This document shows, one piece after another, positions 23,933 to 44,929 of a stretch of 64,000 nt of DNA. Position 1 is the stretch's first letter; each line of letters opens with the position of its first letter. The stretch is taken from the NCBI GenBank assembly GCA_024875585.1, contig GCA_024875585.1_4107.1; one strand, given 5' to 3'. Below the pieces are notes generated by a model that ran no database searches, had not been told where the DNA came from, and saw only the letters and a list, made by a program, of their open reading frames with translations. Made by a program: the position numbers and the translations under genes. This DNA comes from a phage.

Positions 23933-23941
23933 GAGAACAAT

Positions 23942-24847: not shown

Positions 24848-25088
24848 CGTAATCATATATAAACATTTAAGTAATCATTTATAATCATTGTGGTGATCAG
24901 TAGTGATTAGTATTGAGTACTAGAGTGTAATAGAGTACAGGAATGTGCACGTTTAATCAAGAACGTAGCAGTACTGATATGCCACTAAGTAGGCAGAGGA
25001 AGTCTGCCGTACTTTGTAGTTTCCAAGCTCCTTTTCCATTTTGCAAATTACATCAAATGTAATCAAAAGTAATCACGTAATGATTAGT
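24848..25088. repeat. cluster of at least 9 short (G)TAATCA / TGATTA(G) motifs
   Basis: motif recurs in both orientations in non-coding DNA; candidate protein-binding array. Confidence 0.4.
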
Positions 25089-25135
25089 ACTGAAATATTA
25101 GTTTCATCTTTTTTCAAATACCTTTTTACCCTTCG

Positions 25136-25158
25136 GGATAAATGTATTTTTATCCATT
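25136..25158. promoter_or_regulatory. inverted repeat GGATAAA-N6-TTTATCC with DnaA-box-like TTATCCATT
   Basis: 7 bp perfect inverted repeat; loose match to TTATCCACA consensus. Confidence 0.25.
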
Positions 25159-25198
25159 TACCTTTGGGGTAAAATCCCATTACCCCTTGAGGCTCCAG

Positions 25199-25300
25199 CA
25201 AAAAGTTGGAAAGTACTCCATCGTAAATATGGATCGTAAAAATTTTGGAGTACCTATGAAATAAAAGTTGGATCTTCGAAAGTTGAAATTTACGTTGGGA
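25199..25300. repeat. AT-rich repeat block (AAAGTTGGA direct repeats; GTACTCCA/TGGAGTAC inverted repeat flanking ATCGTAAA x2)
   Basis: nested direct and inverted repeats in non-coding DNA. Confidence 0.4.
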
Positions 25301-25381
25301 CATTGATGTTTTTTGGGATATAATGAGTTTTGTAGTGATGAAGTTTGTACGATTACAGTACTGAATAATGAAAGAAAGCTA

Positions 25382-25409
25382 TTGACATTATGATTCAGTA
25401 CTGTATAAT
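25382..25409 (+). promoter_or_regulatory. sigma70-like promoter TTGACA-N16-TATAAT with no obvious ORF downstream
   Basis: consensus hexamers; may drive a non-coding transcript. Confidence 0.45.
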
Positions 25410-25789
25410 GTTCTACATAGAGAGATGAGTTGCCGCAAACAATTCATTCACTCTACCTCCTGTCGTGAGACAGTACAGAAAAGATAGTTCCTCCTATGCG
25501 TGGTACATCTTTTTATAACCTCTTTTTTAGTAATATAAACAGTACTGGTATTAACAGAATGGTATCAGTACTGACTTTAATCTAATACATTATACCACCA
25601 GCACAAGCTGGTGGATTCCCTCTAACAGTATTCAGTACTACATGATAGTCTTCATCCTCCTAGGGTAACATAGTGAGGGCTATTGTGGGAGTACTGAATA
25701 CTCCTTTCAAAAGATAGAATAATGGTATAGTACCGACGGATTTTGGGCGTAGTTACCCTGGGTGGATTTTGGACGTAGATATGTCTAGC

Positions 25790-25926
25790 CCTCCAGAAGT
25801 CTGGAAGTAAAGATGGCTATCCATCTAGACGGCTAAACGGATAGATTTCTAGATGGCTGTATGGCTAGACGTTTGGATGGCTAAACGGCTAGATGGTTAC
25901 ACGTCTGGAAGTATAGACGGCTAAAT
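25790..25926. repeat. iteron-like repeat cluster (GGCTAAAC / CTAGAYGG / TCTGGAAGT units)
   Basis: at least 5 GGCTA-containing units and 2 TCTGGAAGT units in about 140 bp. Confidence 0.5.
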
Positions 25927-26104
25927 CAAAATTTTTATTTTGTTTTTCCAATAGTTCCCCTACCGCGTGAGGATATTTTTCCCCGCAGTATCTGGAGTTA
26001 GATTTTTCTGAATCTGGAATCATTATCTAATAAACTGGGGGCAATGTCAACCGCCTGGATGAATATTTTTAAAAATAATCTAGTACTGAATTTTGGGCGT
26101 AACT

Positions 26105-26126
26105 ATGCACCCGGTGGGCTTGAGTC
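26105..26126. repeat. dispersed intergenic repeat, orientation B (GCACCCGGTGGG core)
   Basis: preceded by AATTTTGGGCG box; copies at 28244, 30397. Confidence 0.45.
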
Positions 26127-26265
26127 TTTCTCGACTTGATGAAACTATTATACAGTACTAGAAAAATAAAGCAATACCCTAAACGCAAAAAAATTTAATT
26201 AATTTGCTTGCTATCCTGGGCCGTAATATGGTACTATTAGTTCAGTACTGAGAAAGTGCTTTAAC

Positions 26266-26289
26266 CTGCTAGGGTGCGGGAGTGTATCC
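26266..26289. repeat. dispersed intergenic repeat, orientation A (GGGTGCGGGAGTGTATC)
   Basis: copies at 28188, 34916, 38327, 41334, 43624. Confidence 0.45.
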
Positions 26290-26320
26290 TTTTTAAATTA
26301 TATGAATTTTGGGCGGATCT

Positions 26321-26342
26321 CGGCACCCTGTGGGTCAGTGCC
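26321..26342. repeat. dispersed repeat variant (GCACCCTGTGGGTCAGTG)
   Basis: preceded by AATTTTGGGCG box. Confidence 0.4.
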
Positions 26343-26628
26343 TTGTGTCCGGCTTATGTAGTAATTATACGCTTTTTCAGTACTGAGTCAATAGCTAAAA
26401 ACAAAAATAATTGAAAATAATTTAACGCGTTTAAACGGCCCGTAAAGCCCTGGAGTGATTGGAATGGTACAAATGTATAGCTTAGGTGTATTAATGCGTT
26501 AGAATGCGATTGAGGCCGTTTTATGGGGTGTAGTGGTGATTTGATTGATTCAGTACTGAATAATAGTACTGAAAGATAGTTCCCCTATATAGAAAGAAAA
26601 CTATTTTAAAAGTACATGTAGAAAGTAC

Positions 26629-26656
26629 TTGCAAACTATCTCAATTGGCGTATAAT
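26629..26656 (+). promoter_or_regulatory. early promoter AAAGTACTTGCAA-N16-TATAAT
   Basis: A-rich upstream, TTGCAA -35, TATAAT -10; leader hairpin at 26670..26688. Confidence 0.6.
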
Positions 26657-26669
26657 GTTTTACATCGAG

Positions 26670-26688
26670 AGCGGGAACACTTCCCGCT
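26670..26688 (+). promoter_or_regulatory. 5' leader hairpin AGCGGGAA-CAC-TTCCCGCT
   Basis: perfect stem a few nt after predicted TSS. Confidence 0.5.
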
Positions 26689-26711
26689 GCACATAAAGAG
26701 AGATTAAAACG

Positions 26712-27074
26712 ATGGCTACTCAAATCAATAAAATTATTGCTAACCTGGTTAACTTCCGCGACGAGATGAAAGGTCTTCCGGCTGAAACGGTAAAAATTCA
26801 CATTTCAGCTTATCGGGAACTTATTGCAATGTTACCGCTTAAGCGTGAACAATACGCCGCTACCGTGATGCTTGATGCGATGATCCATAAGATGATCGCC
26901 AGTGATTTAACGATGGTTTATCAGTACATGGGCGAAAATTTCGCGGTGTCTGGTAAGCCAGTACCAGGGATGGCAACTACTGAGGAATTGCACGGTTTAA
27001 ATTTAAAACAAGATGCATGGGATAATATGCCTCGTTTCCTGGTATGGGCTGACAGTGGCAAAATTTACAAATAA
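26712..27074 (+). CDS. hypothetical early protein (120 aa)
   Basis: promoter + hairpin + SD AGAGAG upstream. Confidence 0.65.
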   Translation: MATQINKIIANLVNFRDEMKGLPAETVKIHISAYRELIAMLPLKREQYAATVMLDAMIHKMIASDLTMVYQYMGENFAVSGKPVPGMATTEELHGLNLKQDAWDNMPRFLVWADSGKIYK

Positions 27075-27088
27075 GTTTAATAAAGTAC

Positions 27089-27116
27089 TTGCATACTAAG
27101 TTAAAACAAGTATAAT
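27089..27116 (+). promoter_or_regulatory. early promoter TTGCAT-N16-TATAAT
   Basis: AAAGTACTTGCAT...TATAAT. Confidence 0.55.
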
Positions 27117-27135
27117 ACTTTCTATCAGGTGCAAC

Positions 27136-27174
27136 GGGAAGTTTTTAAACTTCCCTATAGGGGAATAGTTCCCC
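27136..27174 (+). promoter_or_regulatory. conserved double leader hairpin (GGGAAGTTT-loop-AAACTTCCC + GGGGAATAGTTCCCC)
   Basis: near-identical element also at 35486, 37580, 41762. Confidence 0.55.
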
Positions 27175-27195
27175 ACTATATAAGAGGATTAAAAA

Positions 27196-27435
27196 ATGGC
27201 TAAATCAAAAATGTTCTTAGGTCACAAAAACAAAACTCATTGGAATGTAAGCCTTTGGATTAATAACGATGAGTCATTGTACCGGTTGGCCCAGGACTTT
27301 ATTGCCGCCAACACTAATCGCAATGATGCGGCCCGTCATATGATGTTATTTTTAGAACAGACTGGACAAGATAAAACACCGGACGGATTCAAATATAGCA
27401 CTACTGCGATCCGTGCGGCGATGGTTGGAATGTAA
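27196..27435 (+). CDS. hypothetical early protein (79 aa); paralogue of 29228..29467
   Basis: shared GHKNKTHWNVSLWINNDESLYR...STTAIRAAMVGM. Confidence 0.65.
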   Translation: MAKSKMFLGHKNKTHWNVSLWINNDESLYRLAQDFIAANTNRNDAARHMMLFLEQTGQDKTPDGFKYSTTAIRAAMVGM

Positions 27436-27520
27436 TAGAATTTATTTAAAGTACTATCGCAAAAAATGATAGTACTTTATAATAGTGTTTTATTCATACA
27501 CCAACGATAAGGGCAACAGC

Positions 27521-27787
27521 ATGAATATTAAGTATTTTGCGACGCGTGAACAAGCTCGGAAGGCGGCGAAAGTGGAAGGTGCAACGTTTAAAGATATGGG
27601 CATACAATCGGAACGTGGTAAACGTTGGGCCATTGTAAAGCGTAGTACAGCCAGATCATTACAGTACTGGCTATCAGCTTTAAAAAGTCCTGATAGTGTA
27701 TCGCGTCGAGTGGTAGAAATAAAGCTCGACCGTAAGGGGAATCGTGTTACCGTGTACCGTACTAAAAAGATTGCAGTGCTTGAATAA
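27521..27787 (+). CDS. hypothetical early protein; paralogue of 39641..40036
   Basis: ATG after SD AAGGG; shared KYFATREQAR...RKGNRVTVY. Confidence 0.6.
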   Translation: MNIKYFATREQARKAAKVEGATFKDMGIQSERGKRWAIVKRSTARSLQYWLSALKSPDSVSRRVVEIKLDRKGNRVTVYRTKKIAVLE

Positions 27788-27794
27788 AAAGTAC

Positions 27795-27822
27795 TTGCAA
27801 ACTATGTTTAATGGCGTATAAT
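27795..27822 (+). promoter_or_regulatory. early promoter TTGCAA-N16-TATAAT
   Basis: same consensus as 26629..26656, with GCGGGAA hairpin after it. Confidence 0.6.
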
Positions 27823-27873
27823 GTTTTACATCGAGAGCGGGAACACTTCCCGCCTATAACCTGGAGTAATAAA

Positions 27874-28104
27874 ATGACTAATATGTATATGACTGAAGTT
27901 AAAACCGTAAAAGATACTACCACTAATAAAACTACTTACTTACAGCGGATCTGTGGTGTATGGCAACGTATCAGCAAATCAAAGTACTTTAAATTAACAT
28001 CATATGCCAATCGTTCGGATTCATTCAGTACTGAAATAAAAGGTAATAAAGTACACCAATACGGCACTTATTATTATTATAGCCTGGCCGCGATTGCAGT
28101 ATAA
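27874..28104 (+). CDS. hypothetical early protein (76 aa)
   Basis: ATG after SD GGAGTAA; track start 27811 lies inside the promoter. Confidence 0.55.
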   Translation: MTNMYMTEVKTVKDTTTNKTTYLQRICGVWQRISKSKYFKLTSYANRSDSFSTEIKGNKVHQYGTYYYYSLAAIAV

Positions 28105-28187
28105 GTAGTTTACAAATCTTTACAATTGCCGGTATTGACTTAAAATGTCAGTACTGGCATAATGTATCTATTGAAACGAACAATTTG

Positions 28188-28214
28188 GCCCACGGGGTGC
28201 GGGAGTGTATCTAT
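28188..28214. repeat. dispersed intergenic repeat, orientation A
   Basis: GGCCCACGGGGTGCGGGAGTGTATCTAT. Confidence 0.45.
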
Positions 28215-28243
28215 AGAAAAAGTAGTTTAGTACAGTTACAATT

Positions 28244-28269
28244 GTGCACCCGGTGGGTTAGCTGTTGTC
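28244..28269. repeat. dispersed intergenic repeat, orientation B
   Basis: GTGCACCCGGTGGGTTAGCTGTTGTC. Confidence 0.45.
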
Positions 28270-28352
28270 ATGGGATATATTATACCAGTACTGGATAGTG
28301 CTGTCAATACCTTTTTACTATTCAGTACTGAAAACTATTTGATAAAAAGTAC

Positions 28353-28380
28353 TTGCAAACTATGTTTAAAGGCGTATAAT
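28353..28380 (+). promoter_or_regulatory. early promoter TTGCAA-N16-TATAAT
   Basis: consensus; followed by conserved 83 nt leader element. Confidence 0.6.
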
Positions 28381-28386
28381 GTTTTA

Positions 28387-28469
28387 CATCAGGACGGGGA
28401 ATGAAATAAGTAACTTCCCGTTAAGTAGCCCAGGAGTAAGGCATACGAAAAACTCCCCTGATAAAATAG
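28387..28469 (+). ncRNA. conserved leader element / candidate small RNA (about 83 nt)
   Basis: near-identical copy at 38447..38529; sits between two promoters; no ORF. Confidence 0.25.
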
Positions 28470-28470
28470 T

Positions 28471-28498
28471 TTGACAATTGTTTTTAAAAGCGTATAAT
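28471..28498 (+). promoter_or_regulatory. early promoter TTGACA-N16-TATAAT
   Basis: consensus hexamers before 28531 gene. Confidence 0.6.
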
Positions 28499-28530
28499 AC
28501 TTACATCAACTACTGAATGAGGGTTACAAA

Positions 28531-29142
28531 ATGAAAACTATCACTACTACTACTTATGTTATGGATTTTTCTGAATTGAACGCAGAACAAAAAACGTCAG
28601 CTATCGAACTGGTTCGGGAACGTGAAAAAAACTTAAACGACGATTATTTTTCTGAAAGTGAAATTGAATACTATAAAGAAACAGTATTGCCGGAATATGG
28701 CATTAATGAAGCTGAAATACAATTCAGTGGTTTTTGGTCGCAGGGTGACGGTGCATCAATTAGTACTGACCACGTTGACGCAGTGAAGTTTTTACGTAAG
28801 GTAAGAGCATTAACTAAGTATCGCTCAATCCGTCACCTGCTGAATGAAGATGATTTGGCGATGAGTGTAAAGCGTTCTCACTCCCGCTACTCACATGAGA
28901 ACACTGTAAGCGGGTACATTGAATCGGCTTACACTGATTTAACCGCAAAACAAGAAACGTTAGTTAATGAGCTTGAGGAACTACTCACTGATACTATTCG
29001 TGAATTATCCCGCAAGTTGTACCGTGATTTAGAAAATGCATATGAGGATCAATTCACTACTGAAAACATCGTATCACTGATTGAGGGTAACGAATATCAA
29101 TTCAATGTTATTGATGGCGTAGTAGAATCAATTGCATATTAA
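28531..29142 (+). CDS. hypothetical acidic protein (203 aa)
   Basis: ORF after tandem promoters; SD GAGGG. Confidence 0.65.
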   Translation: MKTITTTTYVMDFSELNAEQKTSAIELVREREKNLNDDYFSESEIEYYKETVLPEYGINEAEIQFSGFWSQGDGASISTDHVDAVKFLRKVRALTKYRSIRHLLNEDDLAMSVKRSHSRYSHENTVSGYIESAYTDLTAKQETLVNELEELLTDTIRELSRKLYRDLENAYEDQFTTENIVSLIEGNEYQFNVIDGVVESIAY

Positions 29143-29227
29143 AAAGTACTTGCAAACTAAGTTTAAAAGCGTATAATACTTTATATCGAGGCGGGGAATG
29201 GTTCCCCGCTCAAACGAGGATTTAAAA

Positions 29228-29467
29228 ATGGCTAGTACTAAAACTTACAACGGACACAAAAACAAAACTCATTGGAATGTAAGCCTTTGGATCAATAACG
29301 ATGAATCATTGTACCGGATTGCTCAAAATTGCATCGCTCAAAGTAAAACGAAAGATATTGCAGCGGAATTTATGTACCGCAGATTAAAAGCCAACGGTAT
29401 TACTACAACGCCGGACGGATTCAAGTATAGCACTACGGCGATCCGTGCTGCAATGGTTGGAATGTAA
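29228..29467 (+). CDS. hypothetical early protein (79 aa); paralogue of 27196..27435
   Basis: ATG after SD GAGGA; track start 29198 lies in the leader hairpin. Confidence 0.6.
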   Translation: MASTKTYNGHKNKTHWNVSLWINNDESLYRIAQNCIAQSKTKDIAAEFMYRRLKANGITTTPDGFKYSTTAIRAAMVGM

Positions 29468-29524
29468 TATTCAGTACTATAACAATGGCGGGGAATAGTT
29501 CCCGCCTTTACTAAGGGTTATCTA

Positions 29525-29806
29525 ATGAGTAAAGTAATAAAGTACAATGTGTTAAGCAAATCATTGTCTATCAGTGAATGCACCGATGGTTTTTGGCTGT
29601 ACGATGAAACGCGTGGCATGAATTTAGCTATGCAGGAGAAAACTGCTGATGCGGCATATCTTAAAGCACTGGAATACTACCAGAAGCGTTTAACGGAAGT
29701 AGAAAACGATTATAATAACCTTAAAGCGAAAGTGGATAATTTCGTTGGTCAATTCGTTGACGATGACGAGGGGCACTACTGCGACCGTTGTGGATCTTAC
29801 AGTTAA
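29525..29806 (+). CDS. hypothetical protein (93 aa)
   Basis: leader hairpin GGCGGGGAATAGTTCCCGCC upstream; SD AAGGG. Confidence 0.55.
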   Translation: MSKVIKYNVLSKSLSISECTDGFWLYDETRGMNLAMQEKTADAAYLKALEYYQKRLTEVENDYNNLKAKVDNFVGQFVDDDEGHYCDRCGSYS

Positions 29807-29823
29807 GTACTAAGGATTATATA

Positions 29824-30027
29824 ATGAGTGATTTAATTGAACGTATCAAAGAGCTTGAAGAAAAAGAATTGCAGTTGATCGGTTTACAGAATAAAATCTA
29901 TCATGATTTGGGGAGTTTTATCAATGCGTGGGATAATGGCGATCCTGATGCGTTACCTGCTAACCGCCAGGCAATGATCAATGATGTGCGTGGTGTCTTT
30001 GAGTATGTTTTAAAGCAATTAAATTAA
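29824..30027 (+). CDS. hypothetical protein (67 aa)
   Basis: ATG after SD AAGGATT; track start overlaps previous gene. Confidence 0.5.
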   Translation: MSDLIERIKELEEKELQLIGLQNKIYHDLGSFINAWDNGDPDALPANRQAMINDVRGVFEYVLKQLN

Positions 30028-30036
30028 AAAAAGTAC

Positions 30037-30064
30037 TTGCAATTAGTTTTTAGTACTGTATAAT
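30037..30064 (+). promoter_or_regulatory. early promoter TTGCAA-N16-TATAAT
   Basis: consensus; leader hairpin GGGAGAAATGGTTCTCCC at 30078..30095. Confidence 0.6.
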
Positions 30065-30114
30065 GTTTTACATAGAGGGGAGAAATGGTTCTCCCTGGTA
30101 ATGAGGAAAATACA

Positions 30115-30336
30115 ATGGCTAATATCACTACTCTTTCTCAACTGGAAGCACTGGTTAAATCTATGCGGGAACATGCCGACAAAATCGGCGTAAAAGATCC
30201 AGCCGTTTGCTTCTGCGACGAAATGAATGATGATACATTGGTAATAGCAGAAGTTCAGGACGTTTCTAACTATTCATCGCGTTACACTGGCGGCGTAGCA
30301 AATAAAGGTGACTTCTGTTTATACCTTACAAAATAA
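30115..30336 (+). CDS. hypothetical early protein (73 aa)
   Basis: ATG after SD GAGGAAAA; track start is the ATG inside the hairpin loop. Confidence 0.6.
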   Translation: MANITTLSQLEALVKSMREHADKIGVKDPAVCFCDEMNDDTLVIAEVQDVSNYSSRYTGGVANKGDFCLYLTK

Positions 30337-30342
30337 CAACGA

Positions 30343-30369
30343 GGGGATCAATTGATCCCCTTTCTTTTT
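30343..30369 (+). terminator. rho-independent terminator (GGGGATCAATTGATCCCC + T-tract)
   Basis: palindromic stem followed by TTTCTTTTT. Confidence 0.65.
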
Positions 30370-30396
30370 CAGTACTGAATAATTTAATAGACGGAT

Positions 30397-30429
30397 CTAT
30401 GCACCCGGTGGGTTAGTGACTGTTTCGTC
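30397..30429. repeat. dispersed intergenic repeat, orientation B
   Basis: CTATGCACCCGGTGGGTTAGTGACTGTTTCGTC. Confidence 0.45.
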
Positions 30430-30502
30430 TTTATGTAGTAATTATGCCAGTACTGGATGCACTTGTCAACAACTATTTTTCAAATACTTTTTATTAAAAT
30501 AC

Positions 30503-30530
30503 TTGCAATTAGTTTTTAAACGCGTATAAT
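30503..30530 (+). promoter_or_regulatory. early promoter TTGCAA-N16-TATAAT
   Basis: consensus; hairpin GGGGGAGCGGTTCCCC follows. Confidence 0.6.
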
Positions 30531-30577
30531 GTTTTGCATAGGGGGAGCGGTTCCCCTGGTAACTAAGGAATAAGAAA

Positions 30578-30814
30578 ATGGTCGAACAAATCAAATCAAC
30601 GTCTTCGAATGTAACGGGAACGGTAGCACACTTTACTTGTGATGAATCGCGGGGCGTTCCCTATTGTGCTGTACATGTAAACACTGAGGGTAACTACTGG
30701 TTTACGGTTTACGGATCATATTCATTTGGACGGCCAGGGCATCAAAAAATTCTGGATAAAGTACAACCAACGGGTAAAAATATCACTGCCGAAATGTTTT
30801 ATAAAAACAAATAA
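30578..30814 (+). CDS. hypothetical early protein (78 aa)
   Basis: SD AAGGAATAAG. Confidence 0.6.
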   Translation: MVEQIKSTSSNVTGTVAHFTCDESRGVPYCAVHVNTEGNYWFTVYGSYSFGRPGHQKILDKVQPTGKNITAEMFYKNK

Positions 30815-30908
30815 AAGTACTTGATAATAGTTTGACTATGTATTACAGTACTGTATAATAGATACATAAGGGGCGAATAGTTTGCCCCTAGTACAAAGGG
30901 GAAACATT

Positions 30909-31139
30909 ATGCCAGGCCGAATAGTTTTACTTAACGCTGGAAGTACTACACAACTCCTTAACGCCGTGTATTATGATATTGAAACGAGCGTCAATCTTAT
31001 CAGTACTGTAGTATTGTTGGACACTGGAAAGGTCGCAAATGATAAAGCGATTGCAGGTATACTAACGGATCTTAAACCAGGTTGCAGTACTCCAATAACT
31101 TTAAATGATAAAGTGTTTAATATTTTACTAACTGATTAA
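30909..31139 (+). CDS. hypothetical early protein (76 aa)
   Basis: ATG after SD AAGGGG; promoter TTGACT...TATAAT and hairpin GGGGCGAATAGTTTGCCCC upstream. Confidence 0.55.
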   Translation: MPGRIVLLNAGSTTQLLNAVYYDIETSVNLISTVVLLDTGKVANDKAIAGILTDLKPGCSTPITLNDKVFNILLTD

Positions 31140-31145
31140 GTACAT

Positions 31146-31174
31146 AGCCCACCTGGTGGGCTTTTTTGTTTTTG
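31146..31174 (+). terminator. rho-independent terminator (AGCCCACC-UGG-UGGGCU + T-tract)
   Basis: hairpin + TTTTTTGTTTTT. Confidence 0.65.
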
Positions 31175-31211
31175 TAGTACTGCATACTTTGAAAATAGTT
31201 TTAAAAAAGTA

Positions 31212-31239
31212 GTTGACATTACCGCAAAAAGGCGTAGAA
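31212..31239 (+). promoter_or_regulatory. early promoter TTGACA-N16-TAGAAT
   Basis: followed by a diverged copy of the conserved leader element. Confidence 0.5.
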
Positions 31240-31363
31240 TGTATTACATCAAGACGGGGAGCACTAAGTAGACCGCCAGTAAGTCGAACGAAAAACTGGA
31301 CACGTCGAGAAAACTTTGATACACTAACTAACATAAACTAAACTTTAATTGAGGATTTATAAA

Positions 31364-31846
31364 ATGGCTAATGTAAAATCATTTCTGAAAGCACTGATTT
31401 CTAACGATACTGCTATTGCTGCTGAATTGCTGGCGGATCTGGATAGCGATACCATGAAAGCGGTACGCAACAATTTTAACATTGCGTACAGTGAAGCTAA
31501 AGAACTGCAAGCCAAAAAGATAGCAGAACTGGAAGAACAGAAAAAAGCCCGTGAAGAAGAATTACAAGCAACTATTGAAAGTATTCAGGCGGCGGTTGCA
31601 GGGTTGGATCTGGATGTAGTTGTAGAAATGGCACATAAAGCCCTGGCAGTTAAGTACGGTGAAGATAAGCCAGTATCTAAACCTAAAAAATGGATTCAGG
31701 AACGCGTAACGGTTGTTCTTGATAATGGCGAGGAACATTTAATTCCCGTGCGTGGTAACTGCATTGCGGTAGTTCTGGATGCTATCAAAGAAAGCGGATT
31801 GACTCGCGAGGAATGGATCGAAGCTCACCGCAAGATTGAAGCATAA
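31364..31846 (+). CDS. hypothetical protein (160 aa), predicted helical
   Basis: ATG after SD GAGGATT. Confidence 0.65.
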   Translation: MANVKSFLKALISNDTAIAAELLADLDSDTMKAVRNNFNIAYSEAKELQAKKIAELEEQKKAREEELQATIESIQAAVAGLDLDVVVEMAHKALAVKYGEDKPVSKPKKWIQERVTVVLDNGEEHLIPVRGNCIAVVLDAIKESGLTREEWIEAHRKIEA

Positions 31847-31867
31847 CAATTAAAGTACTGAATCAAT

Positions 31868-31895
31868 AGCCCACTTTTTATAGTGGGCTTTTTTG
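31868..31895 (+). terminator. rho-independent terminator (GCCCAC-loop-GTGGGC + T6)
   Basis: hairpin + TTTTTTGTG. Confidence 0.6.
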
Positions 31896-32122
31896 TGCTT
31901 ATCGTTTACCATGCCACCAGCACCGCCTAGAATCGATTCTAACGCATTAAACTGATTATCTGATGAATCGCCCTAGCTGGTGGCGTTAATGCCGTTAGAA
32001 CGCGATTGAGGATGTTTAAAGTATTTTTGCAAAAAGTAATAAAAAGTACTTGCACGATTAAGAGATTAGAGTATAATTAATTACATCAAGACAAGACACC
32101 TTAACTAACTGAGGATATAAAG

Positions 32123-32275
32123 ATGAATACTTATGAACTGGATTGTTTTACTTTACAAGTAATGTCAGTATGCAGTAAAAAAGATTGGTCATCAAAGGAA
32201 TTTAAAGCAGTTATTGCGTGTGCAAAACACGGCAAGACTATCAATGAAACGGCATCAATCATTGATAAACTTTAA
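32123..32275 (+). CDS. small hypothetical protein (50 aa)
   Basis: promoter TTGCAC...TATAAT upstream; SD GAGGATA; below track cutoff. Confidence 0.4.
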   Translation: MNTYELDCFTLQVMSVCSKKDWSSKEFKAVIACAKHGKTINETASIIDKL

Positions 32276-32345
32276 AAAATAGTTTGACAATAGTTTTAAG
32301 TACTGCGATAATACATACATCAACTACTGAATAGGAATAAAAACA

Positions 32346-32573
32346 ATGGCTATCGTAATCACTCGCGTAACTGGTACTACTGGCACTGCTTCAACTGTTG
32401 CTGTAATTACTAATAAGAAAGGTGCAGAATTACATTTTGCAATGGATAAATGGGCCGTTAATGAGTTTGGTCAGTGGGCAAGTGTAGAATACATTGAAAC
32501 CTATCAAGTGCCATCGATTAGCTTAACTGATTTAGGTGTAGAACGTATCCTTTGTCTGGATGAATTAAATTAA
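32346..32573 (+). CDS. hypothetical early protein (75 aa)
   Basis: promoter TTGACA...CGATAAT upstream; SD AGGAATAA. Confidence 0.6.
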   Translation: MAIVITRVTGTTGTASTVAVITNKKGAELHFAMDKWAVNEFGQWASVEYIETYQVPSISLTDLGVERILCLDELN

Positions 32574-32660
32574 AAAAGTACTTGCAAAGTAAATCGAATA
32601 AAGTATAATACATTACATCAAGGGGAGAAAATGGTTCTCCCCACTAAGAGGAAACTAAAA

Positions 32661-32804
32661 ATGAAAACTTGTCAATGTGGTAAAAAATCTATTACTGGTT
32701 TGAAACGGGGCGTTTCACTTTGCCAGTACCATTATAATTTACAAGTATGGGGTAAAGAATGGGCCGACCAGGTTGAAGCATCAAAGAAAGCAAAAAGTAA
32801 GTAA
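32661..32804 (+). CDS. small Cys-rich protein (47 aa), possible zinc ribbon
   Basis: CQCG...CQYH; promoter + hairpin + SD AAGAGGAAA; below track cutoff. Confidence 0.4.
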   Translation: MKTCQCGKKSITGLKRGVSLCQYHYNLQVWGKEWADQVEASKKAKSK

Positions 32805-32823
32805 AATTATTATCACAGTACTA

Positions 32824-32852
32824 TTGACATAGATTGATAGTACTGGCATAAT
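32824..32852 (+). promoter_or_regulatory. repeated promoter cassette TTGACA-N17-CATAAT (copy 1)
   Basis: about 80 bp block incl. RBS and ATGGCT repeated at 33119, 35781, 42948. Confidence 0.55.
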
Positions 32853-32885
32853 AGATTTTATCAAGACAACTAAGAGGAAATTAAA

Positions 32886-33098
32886 ATGGCTATCATTATT
32901 AAAAACAAAGTTAATAAGACTATCGTTAAACTGGCAGAAGTGAAAGAAGGTTATAAAGTATCTTGGGAGGGTTTTTATCGGACGTTTACTGATATTGACG
33001 ATGCAATCAATTACTACACTGATACGGTTAAAAACTTTGTTCGTGCTGATGTGGTTATGGCAGTGGCAACATATAAAGCATCAAAAGAAAGTAAGTAA
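32886..33098 (+). CDS. hypothetical early protein (70 aa)
   Basis: MAII... start shared with 35841 gene; SD AAGAGGAAA. Confidence 0.6.
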   Translation: MAIIIKNKVNKTIVKLAEVKEGYKVSWEGFYRTFTDIDDAINYYTDTVKNFVRADVVMAVATYKASKESK

Positions 33099-33118
33099 AA
33101 AATATTATCACAGTACTA

Positions 33119-33147
33119 TTGACATAGATTGATAGTACTGGCATAAT
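33119..33147 (+). promoter_or_regulatory. repeated promoter cassette (copy 2)
   Basis: identical to copy 1. Confidence 0.55.
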
Positions 33148-33180
33148 AGATTTTATCAAGACAACTAAGAGGAAATTAAA

Positions 33181-33525
33181 ATGGCTAACATCAATACTAT
33201 AGCAGCACAAAATATCAACCTGTCTTCTGTTGAAGTTGTACACATTGCCGCCCGGCGTTGGTTCCAGGCGTCTTATGGTAATACGTATTTCTCTTTAACG
33301 GTAGATGTTGAAATCAATGGCGAATTTATTGAAGTAGTAAACGTGCCGTTCCAATATGGCTACGGGGATCATTTTGACACTGTAGCAATGGAAGAATTAA
33401 GCAAGGTTATTAATATGGAAGGTAAAGAGTTTTTACGCGGTTCTTATCTTTCCCGTTTTTGCCGTGATAATAATATTACTGTTTATAGTTCTGTTAGTGA
33501 TGTTAAACGCAAAAAAGATCTTTAA
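33181..33525 (+). CDS. hypothetical early protein (114 aa); paralogue of 39222..39545
   Basis: shared FQYGYGDHF / FTYGYGTQG and C-terminal VKRKKD. Confidence 0.65.
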   Translation: MANINTIAAQNINLSSVEVVHIAARRWFQASYGNTYFSLTVDVEINGEFIEVVNVPFQYGYGDHFDTVAMEELSKVINMEGKEFLRGSYLSRFCRDNNITVYSSVSDVKRKKDL

Positions 33526-33538
33526 TTAGCTTTACTTT

Positions 33539-33567
33539 ATGCAGATACTTTGATACAGTGTCTGCAT
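33539..33567. promoter_or_regulatory. inverted repeat ATGCAGA-N15-TCTGCAT
   Basis: 7 bp perfect inverted repeat after 33181 gene; operator or weak terminator. Confidence 0.3.
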
Positions 33568-33605
33568 AGGGGAAAGAAATTAAATCAACTTAAGAGGATA
33601 GTAAA

Positions 33606-33875
33606 ATGAAAAATATCAGTACTTTAATCGATGCAGGTACACATGTTCGTCGGTCTATGGTTGCAACCAGTTCTACAAAACAAGTAGCGAGCGGTTATCT
33701 TGTATTTGTGCACGATGGTAAACTCCTGGAACGTTCAATCAATTTTGATGTTAAAAACAATTGCCGTTTTATTATCTTTAAGCGTGAGCAATATAAAATT
33801 GATTTACCAGCGAAGCCCATTAGTGGGGCGTACAACGTTCAATCATTGTTTGAGCGTCAACCATACACCTATTAA
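33606..33875 (+). CDS. hypothetical protein (89 aa)
   Basis: SD AAGAGGATAG. Confidence 0.6.
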   Translation: MKNISTLIDAGTHVRRSMVATSSTKQVASGYLVFVHDGKLLERSINFDVKNNCRFIIFKREQYKIDLPAKPISGAYNVQSLFERQPYTY

Positions 33876-33926
33876 TCAAAACAACGTTAGCGGTCGATTT
33901 AGGCCGCTTATACTGGGGATTATATA

Positions 33927-34199
33927 ATGAATACTAATCAAGTACTGAATGAGATTGAAAGCATCATTAAACCGATGAAGCGTACTGATGCTATGTTAAC
34001 ACCGGAAGAATGCCGCCTTTATGAGCGTTACAGCGTCGAACAAGTCCAGGCAATGGCTATGGCTACCCCAGCCGTTAAACAGCCTGAGAACGCGTTACAG
34101 GACGTTACAGGGGATTATATCATCAATCCAGTACTAGGGAAGATGGAAGCAATCACCGAAGAACAAAAAGACTACTTAAGCCAGTACTTAAAAGGTTAA
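33927..34199 (+). CDS. hypothetical protein (90 aa)
   Basis: ORF, ATG start. Confidence 0.55.
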   Translation: MNTNQVLNEIESIIKPMKRTDAMLTPEECRLYERYSVEQVQAMAMATPAVKQPENALQDVTGDYIINPVLGKMEAITEEQKDYLSQYLKG

Positions 34200-34204
34200 T
34201 TAAT

Positions 34205-34414
34205 ATGCTTACTGTACAGGATAAGATCGACATCTTAAAGGTTAATATGTATGTGATTGATGCAGATCCTGAAAAAGTATTTGCATACGATGATTCTAAT
34301 CGTAGTCCTTTTTATTGTAGTCATGTAGTTGGATATGTGCCGTTATCGTATGTTATCGAAAGAGTGGTTGATTCAGCATACAAACATTTTTTAGAAAATA
34401 GTACTTGCAATTAG
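34205..34414 (+). CDS. hypothetical protein (69 aa)
   Basis: TAATTAATATG junction. Confidence 0.55.
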   Translation: MLTVQDKIDILKVNMYVIDADPEKVFAYDDSNRSPFYCSHVVGYVPLSYVIERVVDSAYKHFLENSTCN

Positions 34415-34482
34415 TTTTTAGTACTGTATAATGTTTTACATGAAGGGGGGAAATGATTCTCCCCAATAACAGGAGAAACAAA

Positions 34483-34635
34483 ATGAAACAATACAACGCT
34501 CGGTTTGATGTTACTATCGGCAACGGCAAAGGTCAATTCTCTTTCAGTACTCGTAAGAGTTATACAGAAAACTTCTTGCGTAATTGTGCACTGACCGCCG
34601 CACAAATTAAACATTATTTTCAGGCTAAAAAATGA
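34483..34635 (+). CDS. small hypothetical protein (50 aa)
   Basis: ATG after SD AGGAGAAA; track start 34453 lies in the leader hairpin. Confidence 0.45.
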   Translation: MKQYNARFDVTIGNGKGQFSFSTRKSYTENFLRNCALTAAQIKHYFQAKK

Positions 34636-34721
34636 AATCATTAGCTTATTATAGCTCGGCCCTGGTCGGTGCATTGATCGCGGCATTGTTAGTAGCTTAT
34701 CTATTCTTTATGGTGATTTAA
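34632..34721 (+). CDS. tiny hydrophobic peptide (29 aa)
   Basis: ATGA-coupled; single TM-like segment; speculative. Confidence 0.3.
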   Translation: MKSLAYYSSALVGALIAALLVAYLFFMVI

Positions 34722-34859
34722 ATGAATCCTAACGGTATAATTTACAGTACTCCTAAAACGAAAGCAGATAAAGCGGAAGCACGTAAAGCGAAAGTAAAGG
34801 AGTACATCAAGCAAGGTATGACACGAAAGGCGGCGATTCTAAAAGCTAAAAATAAATGA
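34722..34859 (+). CDS. small basic protein (45 aa)
   Basis: TAAATG-coupled; Lys-rich; speculative. Confidence 0.3.
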   Translation: MNPNGIIYSTPKTKADKAEARKAKVKEYIKQGMTRKAAILKAKNK

Positions 34860-34866
34860 AAAAAAG

Positions 34867-34889
34867 TGGTTGACTTCGGTCAGCCATTT
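34867..34889 (+). terminator. terminator hairpin (GGTTGAC-UUCG-GTCAGCC) with weak T-tract
   Basis: start of a 130 bp repeated intergenic module. Confidence 0.5.
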
Positions 34890-34915
34890 TGCTATTATAT
34901 ATTCATTGAGAGATA

Positions 34916-43352: not shown

Positions 43353-43553
43353 ATGTCTATCGCTATCGCCCTGGTCGAAGTACTGAAAGAAGCTAAAGCC
43401 AACCTTATCGATGTACAGATTAAGGAATTGCAAAATGGCTTAATCGGCTGTACTTGTACCGCTGGTGGCCCGTCAGACTATCGGGAATTCGAATCACTTG
43501 AATCGATGGTCCGTTATCTTACAATCATCGTAGAAGATTGGAGAATCATCTAA
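43353..43553 (+). CDS. hypothetical early protein (66 aa)
   Basis: promoter TTGACA...TATAAT + hairpin GCGGGGGAATAGTTCTCCCGC. Confidence 0.6.
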   Translation: MSIAIALVEVLKEAKANLIDVQIKELQNGLIGCTCTAGGPSDYREFESLESMVRYLTIIVEDWRII

Positions 43554-43572
43554 CAAAAAAAAAGAATAAAAA

Positions 43573-43597
43573 GGGATTGACTCCGGTCAGTCCCTTT
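43573..43597 (+). terminator. terminator hairpin (GGGATTGAC-UCCG-GTCAGTCCC + TTT)
   Basis: same cassette as 41282. Confidence 0.5.
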
Positions 43598-43623
43598 GCT
43601 ATTATATACGCATAGACAAAAAC

Positions 43624-43655
43624 TAGCCCACAGGGTGCATAGGTGTATCTAAAAT
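43624..43655. repeat. dispersed intergenic repeat, orientation A (diverged)
   Basis: AGCCCACAGGGTGCATAGGTGTATCTAAAATAT. Confidence 0.4.
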
Positions 43656-43799
43656 ATATAGTTAATAACGGTGAGTAACCATCTGCTGGTGGAGTGAAAA
43701 CTATTAATAAAAAGTATTGACAAAGTATATCAGTACTGCAATAATGTATCTCGTAGGGCGGCAATGGTGCGACGGCCCACAAAGTTAGGAGATACACAA

Positions 43800-44132
43800 A
43801 TGAGTACTTCAATCGCTATCGTTAAAGCTTTCATCCGTACCAACGTTTCATCTGTATTCATTGACGGATTGGATCGGGAAGTAGAATACTCAATCATTAT
43901 CGCACAAACGGCAAACGGTGCTCGGTACATCCTTAATGATAGTGAAGCAAATCACTACTACTTCACTAAAGCCACTGGCTTTAAACGCATCGATGCTGAT
44001 GTAGTATACGCTAAGATGAATAAGCTGGTAGATAAGATTAACACTAAAGGTACTATCGATTTACAGTACTGGACCGAAACCGATCCAGAATATGGATCTC
44101 ACCGCTACCTGAATCCAGGTATTAAAATGTAA
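43800..44132 (+). CDS. hypothetical protein (110 aa)
   Basis: ATG after SD AGGAGATA; promoter TTGACA...TGCAAT upstream. Confidence 0.6.
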   Translation: MSTSIAIVKAFIRTNVSSVFIDGLDREVEYSIIIAQTANGARYILNDSEANHYYFTKATGFKRIDADVVYAKMNKLVDKINTKGTIDLQYWTETDPEYGSHRYLNPGIKM

Positions 44133-44221
44133 AAAGTACTTGTGTAGCACTTAGATTTAAGTATAATGTTTTTCATAGAGAGGGGGAAATGGTTCTCCCT
44201 CATAAATTAAGGAGTTTTATC

Positions 44222-44623: not shown

Positions 44624-44647
44624 GCATTACACATCACTAAACATCAT

Positions 44648-44667: not shown

Positions 44668-44691
44668 TAACTATATCAGGAGTACATACAC

Positions 44692-44901: not shown

Positions 44902-44929
44902 TACGTAAAATGATTTAGTACTGATTCAG

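What the first reader, a model, noticed from the sequence alone, without database searches (positions are those of the whole stretch)
27089..27195. Stereotyped early transcription units: AAAAAGTACTTGCAA-N16-TATAAT promoters followed by G-rich 5' leader hairpins, including a double hairpin conserved at four loci
More than 20 small genes between 26.6 and 44.9 kb are each preceded by an A-tract, a -35 TTGCAA or TTGACA, and a -10 TATAAT. A few nucleotides after the predicted start site comes a hairpin with a G-rich stem (GGGGAA-loop-TTCCCC, GCGGGAA-CAC-TTCCCGC, GGGAGAA-ATGG-TTCTCCC). Four loci carry an almost identical double hairpin (27136, 35486, 37580, 41762). The conservation goes beyond what simple 5'-end protection needs, suggesting a sequence-specific partner such as an antiterminator, a processing nuclease or a translational regulator. 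Several ORF-track starts (MVLP..., MILP...) are the ATG inside the hairpin loop and are rejected here.
Basis: partly seen in the sequence, partly recalled or inferred. Interest (0 to 1): 0.6.

Follow-up and report, generated by a model that had tools for sequence, protein, structure and literature searches.

The report
Early promoter plus leader-hairpin cassettes
The roughly 20-kb terminal-repeat region of this E. coli jumbo phage is tiled with near-identical strong host-type promoters, about half followed by a short G-rich RNA hairpin a few bases into the transcript. This is a real, selected structure, most likely a generic mRNA 5'-end protector carried on a reshuffled regulatory cassette, not a site for a specific binding protein.

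Summary
The window comes from a 121Q/PBECO4-type (Asteriusvirus) jumbo phage. Positions ~24.95-45.1 kb match the ~21-kb direct terminal repeat annotated in relatives. They hold 46 sigma70-type promoters, all on the + strand. Twenty-two of them carry a 6-9 bp GGG…CCC hairpin starting 8-19 nt after TATAAT (21/46 versus 1.3 in shuffles).

Pairing is under selection:
- Compensatory changes exceed shuffles.
- Thirteen of 14 internal mismatches are G·U.
- Stems diverge at 3.2% against 12.6% for loops.

Position and structure are conserved in other genera (fENko-Kae01, RaK2), but the stem sequence is not, and loops vary freely. That argues against a sequence-specific partner.

The "double hairpin" is not deeply conserved. 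Its first hairpin is a 28-29 nt palindromic insertion at the 5' edge of the ancestral hairpin. It occurs only in this phage (four copies) and once in its closest relative.

Synteny breakpoints between relatives cluster in the cassettes, as with T4-type PeSLs, except that here the stem-loop is transcribed and has no U tract.

Most likely function (inferred): a 5'-proximal stem-loop that limits 5'-end-dependent decay. Verdict: new variant of a known kind, moderate interest.

The parts
24950..45100 (+). Early region equivalent to the ~21-kb direct terminal repeat of Asteriusvirus phages. About 55 small genes, 46 sigma70-type promoters, all rightward. Boundaries are approximate.
   Evidence: Collinear with the annotated DTR 1-21525 of vB_Ec-M-J. 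Genes after 45.1 kb overlap and lack their own promoters. Promoter list.
27089..27116 (+). Promoter of the flagged unit: A-tract/GTAC, -35 TTGCAT (27089-27094), 16-nt spacer, -10 TATAAT (27111-27116). Predicted start is A27124.
   Evidence: The start site is inferred from the conserved CAT 7-8 nt after the -10 and has not been mapped.
27132..27159 (+). The 28-29 nt palindromic insertion caacGGGAAGTTtttaAACTTCCCtata, which forms hairpin 1 of the double hairpin (stem 27136-27155).
   Evidence: Absent from the orthologous leader in ph0011, vB_Ec-M-J, 121Q and SD-2_S15, which read caGGTGGGGAAtagTTCCCCACT.
27160..27174 (+). Hairpin 2, GGGGAA-tag-TTCCCC. This is the ancestral leader hairpin of this unit.
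27182..27198 (+). Shine-Dalgarno AAGAGGA and ATG of a 79-aa DUF7249 protein (27196-27435).
35486..35527 (+). Double hairpin after promoter 35439-35466: inserted hairpin 35486-35506 and ancestral hairpin 35511-35527. This is the only copy shared with ph0011.
37580..37621 (+). Double hairpin after promoter 37533-37560 (37580-37599 and 37604-37621).
   Evidence: Orthologues in 121Q and SD-2_S15 carry a single GGGGAGAAatgaTTCTCCCC.
41762..41803 (+). Double hairpin after promoter 41715-41742 (41762-41782 and 41787-41803).
26670..26688 (+). Single leader hairpin AGCGGGAA-cac-TTCCCGCT after promoter 26629-26656.
27837..27853 (+). Single leader hairpin GCGGGAA-cac-TTCCCGC after promoter 27795-27822.
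29190..29210 (+). Single leader hairpin GGCGGGGAA-tgg-TTCCCCGCT after promoter 29150-29177.
29487..29506 (+). Hairpin GGCGGGGA-atag-TTCCCGCC with no intact promoter (a degraded cassette). The 121Q orthologue still has its promoter.
30077..30096 (+). Single leader hairpin GGGGAGAA-atgg-TTCTCCCT after promoter 30037-30064.
30539..30558 (+). Single leader hairpin TAGGGGGA-gcgg-TTCCCCTG after promoter 30503-30530.
30869..30889 (+). Single leader hairpin AGGGGCGAA-tag-TTTGCCCCT after promoter 30832-30859.
32622..32642 (+). Single leader hairpin GGGGAGAA-aatgg-TTCTCCCC after promoter 32582-32609.
   Evidence: The same gene and cassette occur in a Vequintavirinae phage.
34445..34464 (+). Single leader hairpin GGGGGGAA-atga-TTCTCCCC (contains one G.U pair) after promoter 34405-34432.
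35047..35061 (+). Weak leader hairpin GGGAAA-cgg-TTTCCC after promoter 35003-35030.
37301..37319 (+). Single leader hairpin AGGGGAA-acatc-TTCCCCT after promoter 37262-37289.
37902..37918 (+). Single leader hairpin AGGGGAA-tag-TTCCCCT after the promoter ending at 37888.
38913..38931 (+). Single leader hairpin GAGGGGAA-tgg-TTCCCCTC after promoter 38871-38898.
39181..39200 (+). Single leader hairpin GAGGGGAA-acgg-TTCCCCTC after promoter 39139-39166.
41450..41467 (+). Single leader hairpin GGGGGAA-atgg-TTCTCCC after promoter 41408-41435.
42335..42355 (+). Single leader hairpin GAGGGGAAA-tgg-TTTCCCCTC after promoter 42295-42322.
42668..42686 (+). Single leader hairpin GGGGGAG-atatc-CTCCCCC after promoter 42630-42657.
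43310..43330 (+). Single leader hairpin GCGGGGGAA-tag-TTCTCCCGC after promoter 43270-43297.
44180..44201 (+). Single leader hairpin GAGGGGGAA-atgg-TTCTCCCTC after the promoter ending at 44167.
4076..4133 (+). The same architecture outside the repeat: TTGACA-N16-TATAAT followed by GGGGATGA-acttc-TCATCCCT (4113-4133). The stem resembles the RaK2 type.

Best explanation
Each unit is a self-contained early-expression cassette in the terminal-repeat region of a Rak2-like jumbo phage. That region is probably the first DNA to enter the cell.

A cassette consists of:
- an A-rich/GTAC upstream element;
- a near-consensus sigma70 promoter (16-nt spacer, TATAAT);
- a conserved initial transcribed sequence (…CAT…);
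- in about half of the units, a stable 6-9 bp stem-loop (5'-GGG…loop…CCC-3', -9 to -16 kcal/mol) starting 10-14 nt after the -10, which is 1-7 nt from the predicted 5' end;
- an unstructured A-rich stretch of ~18-23 nt holding the Shine-Dalgarno sequence and the ATG.

Shown: the hairpin is on the transcribed strand and its pairing is selected, while its loop, and across genera its stem sequence, are free to change.

Inferred: it acts as a generic 5'-proximal stem-loop that restricts access of 5'-end-dependent decay enzymes (RppH, the RNase E 5' sensor). The initiating ribosome covers the rest of the short leader. Early phage mRNAs therefore expose little naked 5' RNA.

Because the ~100-bp cassettes are repeated dozens of times, they also serve as recombination sites that insert, delete and swap the small genes between them. 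This resembles T4-type PeSLs.

The double hairpin is a derived state. A 28-29 nt palindrome was inserted at the 5' edge of the ancestral stem at one locus in the common ancestor with ph0011. In this phage it was copied to three further leaders, probably by gene conversion or template switching between paralogous leaders.
For: Identity and context:
- 94.5% identity to ph0011 and other Asteriusvirus records.
- A DTR is annotated in vB_Ec-M-J and fENko-Kae01. DTRs were confirmed experimentally or by PhageTerm (PMC13070987, PMC11895373).
- PA5oct DTR genes are early and the phage is rifampicin-sensitive (PMC7318152).

Enrichment: 21/46 promoters with a hairpin against 1.3 in shuffles.

Pairing is selected:
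- Cells with a change on both sides number 25 against 9.9 +/- 3.4 in shuffles (0/500 reach it).
- Covariation score is 0.304 against 0.189.
- Four of the nine pairs show compensatory changes, for example column 8/23: AU 16, GC 10, GU 9.
- In a detection that does not favour G.U, 13 of 14 internal mismatches are G.T and 1 is A.C.
- Orthologue divergence: stems 3.2%, -35 3.5%, CDS 6.7%, initial transcribed sequence 7.9%, loops 12.6%.

Position is fixed. There are 10-14 nt between the -10 and the stem in nine genomes, with a mode of 12 in Asteriusvirus and 10 in fENko-Kae01, RaK2 and two metagenomic relatives.

Same architecture, other stems: RaK2 uses GGGGATAC/GTATCCC, GGGAATGA/TCATTCCC and GGAGGT/ACCTCC.

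Not a terminator. No U tract follows the stems, none is called as a + strand terminator, and true terminators with T runs exist nearby.

Leader geometry:
- Hairpin leaders are 40-48 nt.
- In most of them 18-23 nt separate the stem from the ATG (17 of 26; the full range is 1-23 nt).
- Eleven of 14 hairpin-less leaders are 21-27 nt in total.
- The SD is never paired.

Shuffling:
- 78/103 synteny junction ends (41/54 distinct) lie in cassette windows that cover 28% of the region.
- vB_Ec-M-J has an extra gene flanked by two cassettes where the window has one.
- Gene-plus-cassette blocks are shared with a Vequintavirinae phage.

Established knowledge: 5'-terminal stem-loops stabilise E. coli mRNAs (Emory 1992, Bouvet & Belasco 1992 and Arnold 1998, as listed in the review PMC3997798).
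Against: - No transcription start site has been mapped for any of these phages, so the 5' overhang (1-7 nt) is a prediction.
- From memory of the Belasco work, protection needs a very short overhang. Many Asteriusvirus units would have 4-7 unpaired nt.
- The four double-hairpin leaders would have 12 unpaired nt. That fits the protection model poorly.
- RNase E scanning is not blocked by a simple orthogonal stem-loop (PMC9943677). Any protection must therefore act at the 5' end itself.
- About half of the promoters have no hairpin.
- The invariant G-first orientation of the stem is not explained by stability alone.
- The + strand hairpin is only slightly more stable than its reverse complement (42 versus 25 cases, p about 0.01, sequences not independent).
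- The covariation alignment was fitted to the model, and the paralogues and orthologues in it are related by descent.
Confidence: 0.5

Rival explanations
1. Sequence-specific partner. The hairpin would be a recognition site for a phage or host protein, such as an antiterminator, a processing nuclease or a translational repressor, that controls all early mRNAs together.
For: - Within Asteriusvirus the stem core GGGRA/TYCCC and the G-first orientation are very uniform.
- The position relative to the promoter is fixed.
- The stems are more conserved than the coding sequence.
Against: - Loops are the most variable part and range over cac, tag, tgg, atgg, atga, acgg, acatc and aaac.
- RaK2 and the window unit at 4113 use unrelated stem sequences in the same place.
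- The identical double hairpin is a recent insertion, not old conservation.
- No Rfam family matches, including at a relaxed threshold.
- Each gene has its own promoter and terminators are few, so there is little for an antiterminator to do.
Confidence: 0.15
2. Pure PeSL-type element. The stem-loop would exist mainly as a recombination hotspot and/or as an attenuator of read-through from the upstream gene, with no role in its own transcript.
For: - Breakpoints between relatives cluster in the cassettes.
- There are cassette-flanked gene indels.
- A promoter-less hairpin is retained at 29487.
- RB49/phi1 PeSLs also have G(n)-loop-C(n) stems, and one of them terminated transcription in a reporter (PMC2839356, PMC4122927).
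Against: - The stems have no U tract and are not scored as terminators.
- They lie downstream of the -10, at a tightly fixed distance from it. A terminator for upstream transcripts would not need that.
- The G.U over A.C bias and the compensatory changes indicate selection on RNA pairing, not on sequence identity for recombination.
Confidence: 0.15
3. Aid to promoter escape or pausing. The nascent hairpin forming at about +5 to +25 would help RNA polymerase leave these near-consensus promoters, which bind it very tightly, or would set a promoter-proximal pause that couples transcription to the first ribosome.
For: - The hairpin is linked to one promoter class: 16-nt spacer, perfect TATAAT and the conserved initial transcribed sequence.
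- Promoters with an extended -10 and a 17-nt spacer lack it.
- The distance to the -10 is fixed.
Against: - No -10-like pause element lies in the initial transcribed region.
- I know of no established precedent for hairpin-assisted escape from sigma70 promoters (from memory).
- The link to promoter class can equally come from common descent of the cassettes.
Confidence: 0.1
4. DNA operator. The inverted repeat just downstream of the start site would be bound as double-stranded DNA by a dimeric phage repressor that shuts off all early promoters.
For: - The palindrome sits in a classical operator position, about +5 to +25.
- It is present at many early promoters.
Against: - The two halves covary, which independent half-sites would not do.
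- Asymmetries are almost all G.T on the transcribed strand (13 of 14).
- The spacing between the half-sites varies from 3 to 5 nt.
- The sequence differs between genera.
Confidence: 0.05

Closest known systems
PeSLs (promoter-early stem-loops) of T4-type phages RB49/phi1, PST/T4 and nt-1/KVP40 (Arbiol 2010, PMC2839356; Comeau 2014, PMC4122927)
   Same: - Repeated ~100-bp intergenic cassettes with an AT-rich upstream region, a near-consensus sigma70 early promoter, a G(n)-loop-C(n) stem-loop, an SD and an ATG.
- Concentrated among small genes of unknown function.
- Gene indels and replacements between relatives have their ends in the cassettes.
- Rak2-like phages are distant relatives of the T4 group (PMC5259590).
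   Different: - In PeSLs the stem-loop lies upstream of the promoter, between -35 and -10, or over the -10, and is described as a terminator for upstream transcription.
- Here it lies 10-14 nt downstream of the -10, is part of the cassette's own transcript, has no U tract, and shows RNA-level covariation.
- Mini-circle formation was not tested.
- The window also holds classical PeSL-like units, with the hairpin across the -35, at 34863, 38270, 41279 and 43570.
5'-terminal stabiliser stem-loops of E. coli mRNAs (ompA, papA; Emory/Bouvet/Belasco 1992, cited in PMC3997798)
   Same: A stable hairpin near the 5' end of a short leader, followed by an accessible ribosome-binding site. No particular sequence is required.
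   Different: - The predicted overhang is 1-7 nt, and 12 nt in the double-hairpin leaders, whereas the classical cases have almost none.
- No half-life data exist for these units.
- Here the element is used en masse on dozens of phage early genes.
Lambda nut boxB and HK022 put RNAs (promoter-proximal antitermination RNAs)
   Same: Small hairpins, two tandem ones in put, transcribed just downstream of early promoters.
   Different: - boxB depends on a specific purine-rich loop, and put on a conserved ~70-nt two-stem fold. Here the loops vary freely, and the second hairpin is a recent insertion.
- No boxA-like element is present.
- Each gene has its own promoter.
- No Rfam hit.
REP/MITE-like miniature palindromic insertions
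   Same: The 28-29 nt palindrome (caac-GGGAAGTTT..AAACTTCCC-tata) appears at four analogous sites and is missing from orthologous sites in relatives.
   Different: - There are only five copies known in all, every one in the same kind of target (the G-run of a leader hairpin).
- There are no clear target-site duplications.
- No associated transposase was examined.
- No copies occur in E. coli genomes, IMG/VR or metagenome contigs.

Membership tests
PeSL (promoter-early stem-loop cassette) | Repeated intergenic motif with an AT-rich upstream region and a sigma70-like early promoter, ending in an SD and a start codon | tested here: met
   46 such units.
PeSL (promoter-early stem-loop cassette) | Stem-loop placed upstream of, within or over the promoter, acting as a terminator or attenuator for upstream transcription | tested here: not met
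   The stem starts 8-19 nt downstream of the -10. It has no U tract and is not called as a terminator. Terminator activity itself was not measured.
PeSL (promoter-early stem-loop cassette) | Gene indels and replacements between close relatives have their ends in the cassettes | tested here: met
   41 of 54 distinct junction ends fall in windows covering 28% of the region. There is also a cassette-flanked extra gene in vB_Ec-M-J.
PeSL (promoter-early stem-loop cassette) | Formation of excised mini-circles by recombination between flanking cassettes | not testable with these tools
   Needs inverse PCR on infected cells or virion DNA.
5'-terminal stabiliser stem-loop | Stable base-paired structure maintained by selection | tested here: met
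   folding energies of -9 to -16 kcal/mol.
5'-terminal stabiliser stem-loop | Stem within a very few unpaired nucleotides of the true 5' end | tested here: inconclusive
   The predicted overhang is 1-7 nt for single hairpins and 12 nt for double hairpins, assuming a start at the A of the conserved CAT. No start site has been mapped.
5'-terminal stabiliser stem-loop | Removing the stem shortens mRNA half-life in a way that depends on RppH or the RNase E 5' sensor | not testable with these tools
   Needs rifampicin-chase experiments.
Intrinsic (Rho-independent) terminator | GC-rich hairpin immediately followed by a U tract | tested here: not met
   The sequence after the stems is actaag, ctaaca, ggtaat and the like. 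None is in the + strand terminator list, which does list true terminators at 30341, 31146, 31868 and 40059.
Lambda-type nut (boxA-boxB) / HK022 put | Conserved loop sequence or fold, and a covariance-model match | tested here: not met
   Loops vary. No Rfam match at the gathering threshold or at E<=1. I did not verify that put is represented in Rfam.
Mobile miniature palindrome (REP/MITE-like), for the 28-29 nt insert | Many dispersed copies, presence/absence polymorphism, and a dedicated transposase or target duplication | tested here: inconclusive
   Presence/absence polymorphism is met. Only five copies are known and all lie in one target type. None was found elsewhere. No transposase was searched for.

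The most novel reading that the evidence does not exclude
The G-started 5' hairpin could be a dedicated self-mark on the early mRNAs of Rak2-like jumbo phages. A phage or host factor would read it, for example to exempt phage transcripts from a phage-induced, 5'-end-dependent destruction of host mRNA, or to switch off all early messages together. On this reading, the 28-29 nt palindrome spreading among leaders would be a miniature element that targets this mark.
Probability: 0.12. Interest if true: 0.7.

Novelty: new variant of a known kind. Interest (0 to 1): 0.4.

Why it matters
If the hairpins are 5'-end protectors, this phage group has standardised a promoter, stabiliser and ribosome-binding-site cassette and placed it in front of about 20 host-takeover genes in the terminal-repeat region, which is probably the first DNA to enter the cell. 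That would be a natural counterpart of synthetic expression cassettes. The units would be compact, strong and portable parts for E. coli.

The finding also extends the PeSL concept, regulatory cassettes that double as recombination sites, from T4-type phages to Rak2-like jumbo phages and to exchange with Vequintavirinae. It shows that the stem-loop can sit inside the transcript.

It corrects gene starts: ATGs inside hairpin loops have been taken as starts. It also dates the double hairpin as a very recent event.

None of the phage genome papers I could read describes these elements.

Tried and rejected
- **Rfam.** The whole window at gathering threshold and the repeat region at E<=1 gave nothing relevant. 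No tRNA or tmRNA genes were found.
- **Whole-leader folding on both strands.** Comparing 55-nt leader MFEs gave no + strand advantage. I dropped it as uninformative because the SD region dominates. The hairpin-only comparison is only weakly asymmetric.
- **Source of the 28-29 nt insert.** The phage collection holds one other copy, in ph0011. IMG/VR holds none. Metagenome contigs gave four unrelated chance matches. Complete E. coli genomes gave none.
- **Loop ATG as a real start or leader peptide.** Rejected for four reasons. The SD-like GGAG is only 2 nt from the ATG and is sequestered in the stem. The frame is not conserved in orthologues. Many loops have no ATG at all.
- **N4-type single-stranded hairpin promoters.** Considered and rejected. 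The hairpins follow complete sigma70 promoters, and the related phage PA5oct needs host RNA polymerase from the start (PMC7318152).
- **RNase III site.** Rejected because the stems are only 6-9 bp.
- **Alternative pairing between the 3' arm and the SD.** No good complementarity on inspection, and the SD is unpaired in every MFE fold.
- **RNase E scanning obstacle.** Weakened by PMC9943677, which reports that orthogonal stem-loops are bypassed.
- **Pfam on the downstream proteins.** The four double-hairpin genes share no common function: one is DUF7249 and three have no hit.
Full report
**What the window is.** A 4-kb query around the finding matches E. coli jumbo myoviruses of the 121Q/PBECO4 group (genus Asteriusvirus). 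The best match is ph0011 at 94.5% identity.

In vB_Ec-M-J the homologous DNA is annotated as a 21,525-bp direct terminal repeat (DTR) holding 53 small genes. Directly after it the genes overlap and have no promoters of their own. The window is collinear with that record (window coordinate is about record + 24,950). The promoter-dense stretch at ~24.95-45.1 kb therefore corresponds to the DTR.

DTRs of about 20-21 kb were confirmed by restriction mapping or PhageTerm in fEgEco12 and Sharanji (PMC13070987, PMC11895373). In the related phage PA5oct the DTR genes are the highly transcribed early genes, and infection is sensitive to rifampicin (PMC7318152). "Early transcription units" is therefore a reasonable label, by analogy with these relatives.

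- GTACTTGCA-N-TATAAT occurs 14 times, all on the + strand, against 0.01 expected.
- A looser pattern gives 46 promoters in the DTR-equivalent region.
- Twenty-two of them, plus one unit at 4076-4133 outside the repeat, are followed by a 6-9 bp hairpin whose 5' arm starts with a G run and whose 3' arm ends with a C run.
- Such a hairpin lies within +6..+45 of the -10 at 21 of 46 promoters. Shuffled leaders give 1.3 +/- 1.05.

There are two promoter classes. The hairpin goes with the class that has a 16-nt spacer, a perfect TATAAT and the initial transcribed sequence gtttt(a/g)CAT. Promoters with a 17-nt spacer and an extended -10 (TGnCATAAT) lack it.

**Pairing is selected, and at the RNA level.** I built a covariance model from 17 ungapped hairpins. 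It found 54 strong + strand hits in the window and six relatives, 35 of them distinct. On that alignment:
- 88.6% of cells pair, against 83.8% in shuffles (0/500 shuffles reach the observed value);
- 25 cells carry changes on both sides, against 9.9 +/- 3.4 (0/500);
- the covariation score is 0.304 against 0.189, and against at most 0.153 for slid partners;
- four of the nine pairs show compensatory changes.

This alignment is fitted to the model and the sequences are related by descent, so I added two independent checks.
- **Mismatch type.** I detected promoter-proximal inverted repeats using Watson-Crick pairs only, allowing one internal mismatch of any kind. Of 56 distinct repeats, 14 have a mismatch. 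Thirteen of those are G.T and one is A.C. That is expected if the + strand RNA must pair. It is not expected for a double-stranded DNA site.
- **Divergence by region.** Across 57 orthologous unit pairs, per-site divergence is 0.6% in the -10, 3.5% in the -35, 3.2% in stems, 6.7% in coding sequence, 7.9% in the 5' tail and 12.6% in loops.

A direct comparison of hairpin energies on the two strands favours the + strand only weakly (42 versus 25 cases).

**Position and structure are conserved across genera; the stem sequence is not.** The distance from the -10 to the first paired base is 10-14 nt in nine genomes. The mode is 12 in Asteriusvirus and 10 elsewhere.
- Klebsiella phage fENko-Kae01 belongs to a different genus-level cluster (~29% ANI; PMC13070987). 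Its DTR has the same AAAGTACTTGCAA-N16-TATAAT followed by GGGGGAAacatcTTCCCCC. Two metagenomic jumbo-phage contigs show the same.
- RaK2 keeps the promoter, the distance and the GGG start but uses other stems: GGGGATAC/GTATCCC, GGGAATGA/TCATTCCC and GGAGGT/ACCTCC.

Together with the free loops, this argues against a partner that reads a particular sequence.

**The double hairpin is a recent insertion.** In 121Q, vB_Ec-M-J, SD-2_S15 and, at three of the four loci, ph0011, the orthologous leaders carry one hairpin, for example caGGTGGGGAAtagTTCCCCACT. The window reads caGGTG-caacGGGAAGTTtttaAACTTCCCtata-GGGGAAtagTTCCCCACT.

The extra 28-29 nt sit at the 5' edge of the ancestral G-run arm in all four cases. 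Each second hairpin matches its own orthologue. The insert occurs four times in the window and once in ph0011, at the locus orthologous to 35486. It was found in no other phage record, IMG/VR contig, metagenome contig (four unrelated chance matches) or E. coli genome.

Its near-identity therefore reflects recent copying between paralogous leaders, not long-term constraint. The copying mechanism is not resolved. It could be gene conversion, template switching at the hairpins, or an autonomous mini-element.

**What the hairpin is not.** It has no U tract and is not scored as a + strand terminator, while canonical terminators with T runs are present nearby. It matches no Rfam family. The loop ATGs are not conserved starts.

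**Most likely mechanism (inferred).** I assumed initiation at the A of the conserved CAT, the eighth nucleotide after TATAAT.
- Single-hairpin leaders are then 40-48 nt, with 1-7 unpaired nt at the 5' end.
- In most of them (17 of 26) 18-23 unstructured nt run from the stem to the ATG; the full range is 1-23 nt.
- Eleven of 14 hairpin-less leaders are only 21-27 nt in total.
- The SD is never paired.

In both classes almost no RNA would be left uncovered by either the stem or the initiating ribosome. This fits the established role of 5'-proximal stem-loops in blocking 5'-end-dependent decay (references in PMC3997798).

The weak points are real:
- No start site has been mapped.
- Many overhangs would be 4-7 nt.
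- The double-hairpin leaders would have 12 nt.
- Simple stem-loops do not stop RNase E once it is scanning (PMC9943677).

I put this function at about 0.5. That the element is a selected, transcribed RNA hairpin inside a conserved promoter-leader cassette I put at about 0.9.

**Evolutionary role.** When the window is compared with four relatives, 78 of 103 synteny junction ends (41 of 54 distinct) fall within -60..+65 of a -10. Those windows cover 28% of the region. vB_Ec-M-J has an extra gene bracketed by two near-identical cassettes where the window has a single one. A promoter-less hairpin survives at 29487. A 141-kb Vequintavirinae phage carries homologous small genes with the same cassettes, one of them with a compensated stem, GCGGCA/TGCCGC.

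This is the behaviour described for PeSLs in T4-type phages (PMC2839356, PMC4122927). There, however, the stem-loop lies upstream of or within the promoter and is treated as a terminator. Here it is transcribed. I therefore file this as a new variant of a known kind.

**Literature.** The Asteriusvirus/Rak2-like genome papers I could read mention RpoD-like promoters at most and do not describe leader hairpins.

**Verdict.**
- Observation: confirmed.
- Interpretation: partly supported. Transcribed, selected leader hairpins, yes. A sequence-specific partner inferred from the double hairpin, no.
- Interest: moderate, 0.4.

Noticed in passing
whole window; e.g. 22895-23645, 25356-25573, 59914-63554; in promoters at -32 and -12/-13 relative to the end of the -10: The palindrome AGTACT occurs 225 times against 18.4 +/- 3.7 in shuffles, and CAGTACTG 46 times against 0.75. 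In promoters it sits at two fixed places: overlapping the 5' edge of the -35 (17 promoters) and abutting the -10 (19 promoters). Many copies are inside genes and outside the repeat. The motif also appears in the same place in several fENko-Kae01 and RaK2 promoters (not counted there). It is unexplained; it could be a regulator binding site or a GTAC modification target.
   Followed up: partly
window 26230-26300, 28135-28250, 34863-34960, 38270-38360, 41279-41380, 43570-43660: A six-copy repeat. A weak promoter is embedded in a terminator-like hairpin (AAAGGGATTGACtccgGTCAGTCCCTTTgcTATTAT). About 60 nt follow with an invariant GGGTGCG…GTGTATC core, no ORF and no Rfam hit. Similar units occur in fENko-Kae01 and RaK2. 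This is a candidate small RNA, and the hairpin-over-the-promoter arrangement is the classical PeSL layout.
   Followed up: partly
window 28353-28470 and 38413-38530 (31213-31340 is similar): A strong promoter is followed by ~95 nt without an ORF (caggacggggaa…cccaggagtaaggcatacgaaaaactcccctgataaaatag) and then immediately by a second consensus promoter. This may be a short non-coding transcript or a tandem-promoter arrangement.
   Followed up: no
L131 (Escherichia phage vB_EcoM-LTH01, Vequintavirinae) 1195-2360 against window 26624-27435, 32449-32799 and 35159-35818: A 141-kb non-jumbo phage carries several of the same small early genes with the same promoter-hairpin cassettes at 76-85% identity. 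Gene-plus-cassette modules are therefore exchanged between phage families.
   Followed up: partly
window 14000-24000, minus strand: Upstream of the repeat lies a long run of leftward genes. The GC skew reverses at ~14-24 kb. In 121Q these genes are annotated as many paralogous RCC1-like 'DNA condensation' proteins.
   Followed up: no
window 36569-36826, 36891-37247, 40683-41267: Among the small early genes are a DksA/TraR-type zinc-finger protein, a GNAT acetyltransferase and a weak protein-kinase-like protein. These look like host-takeover functions.
   Followed up: partly
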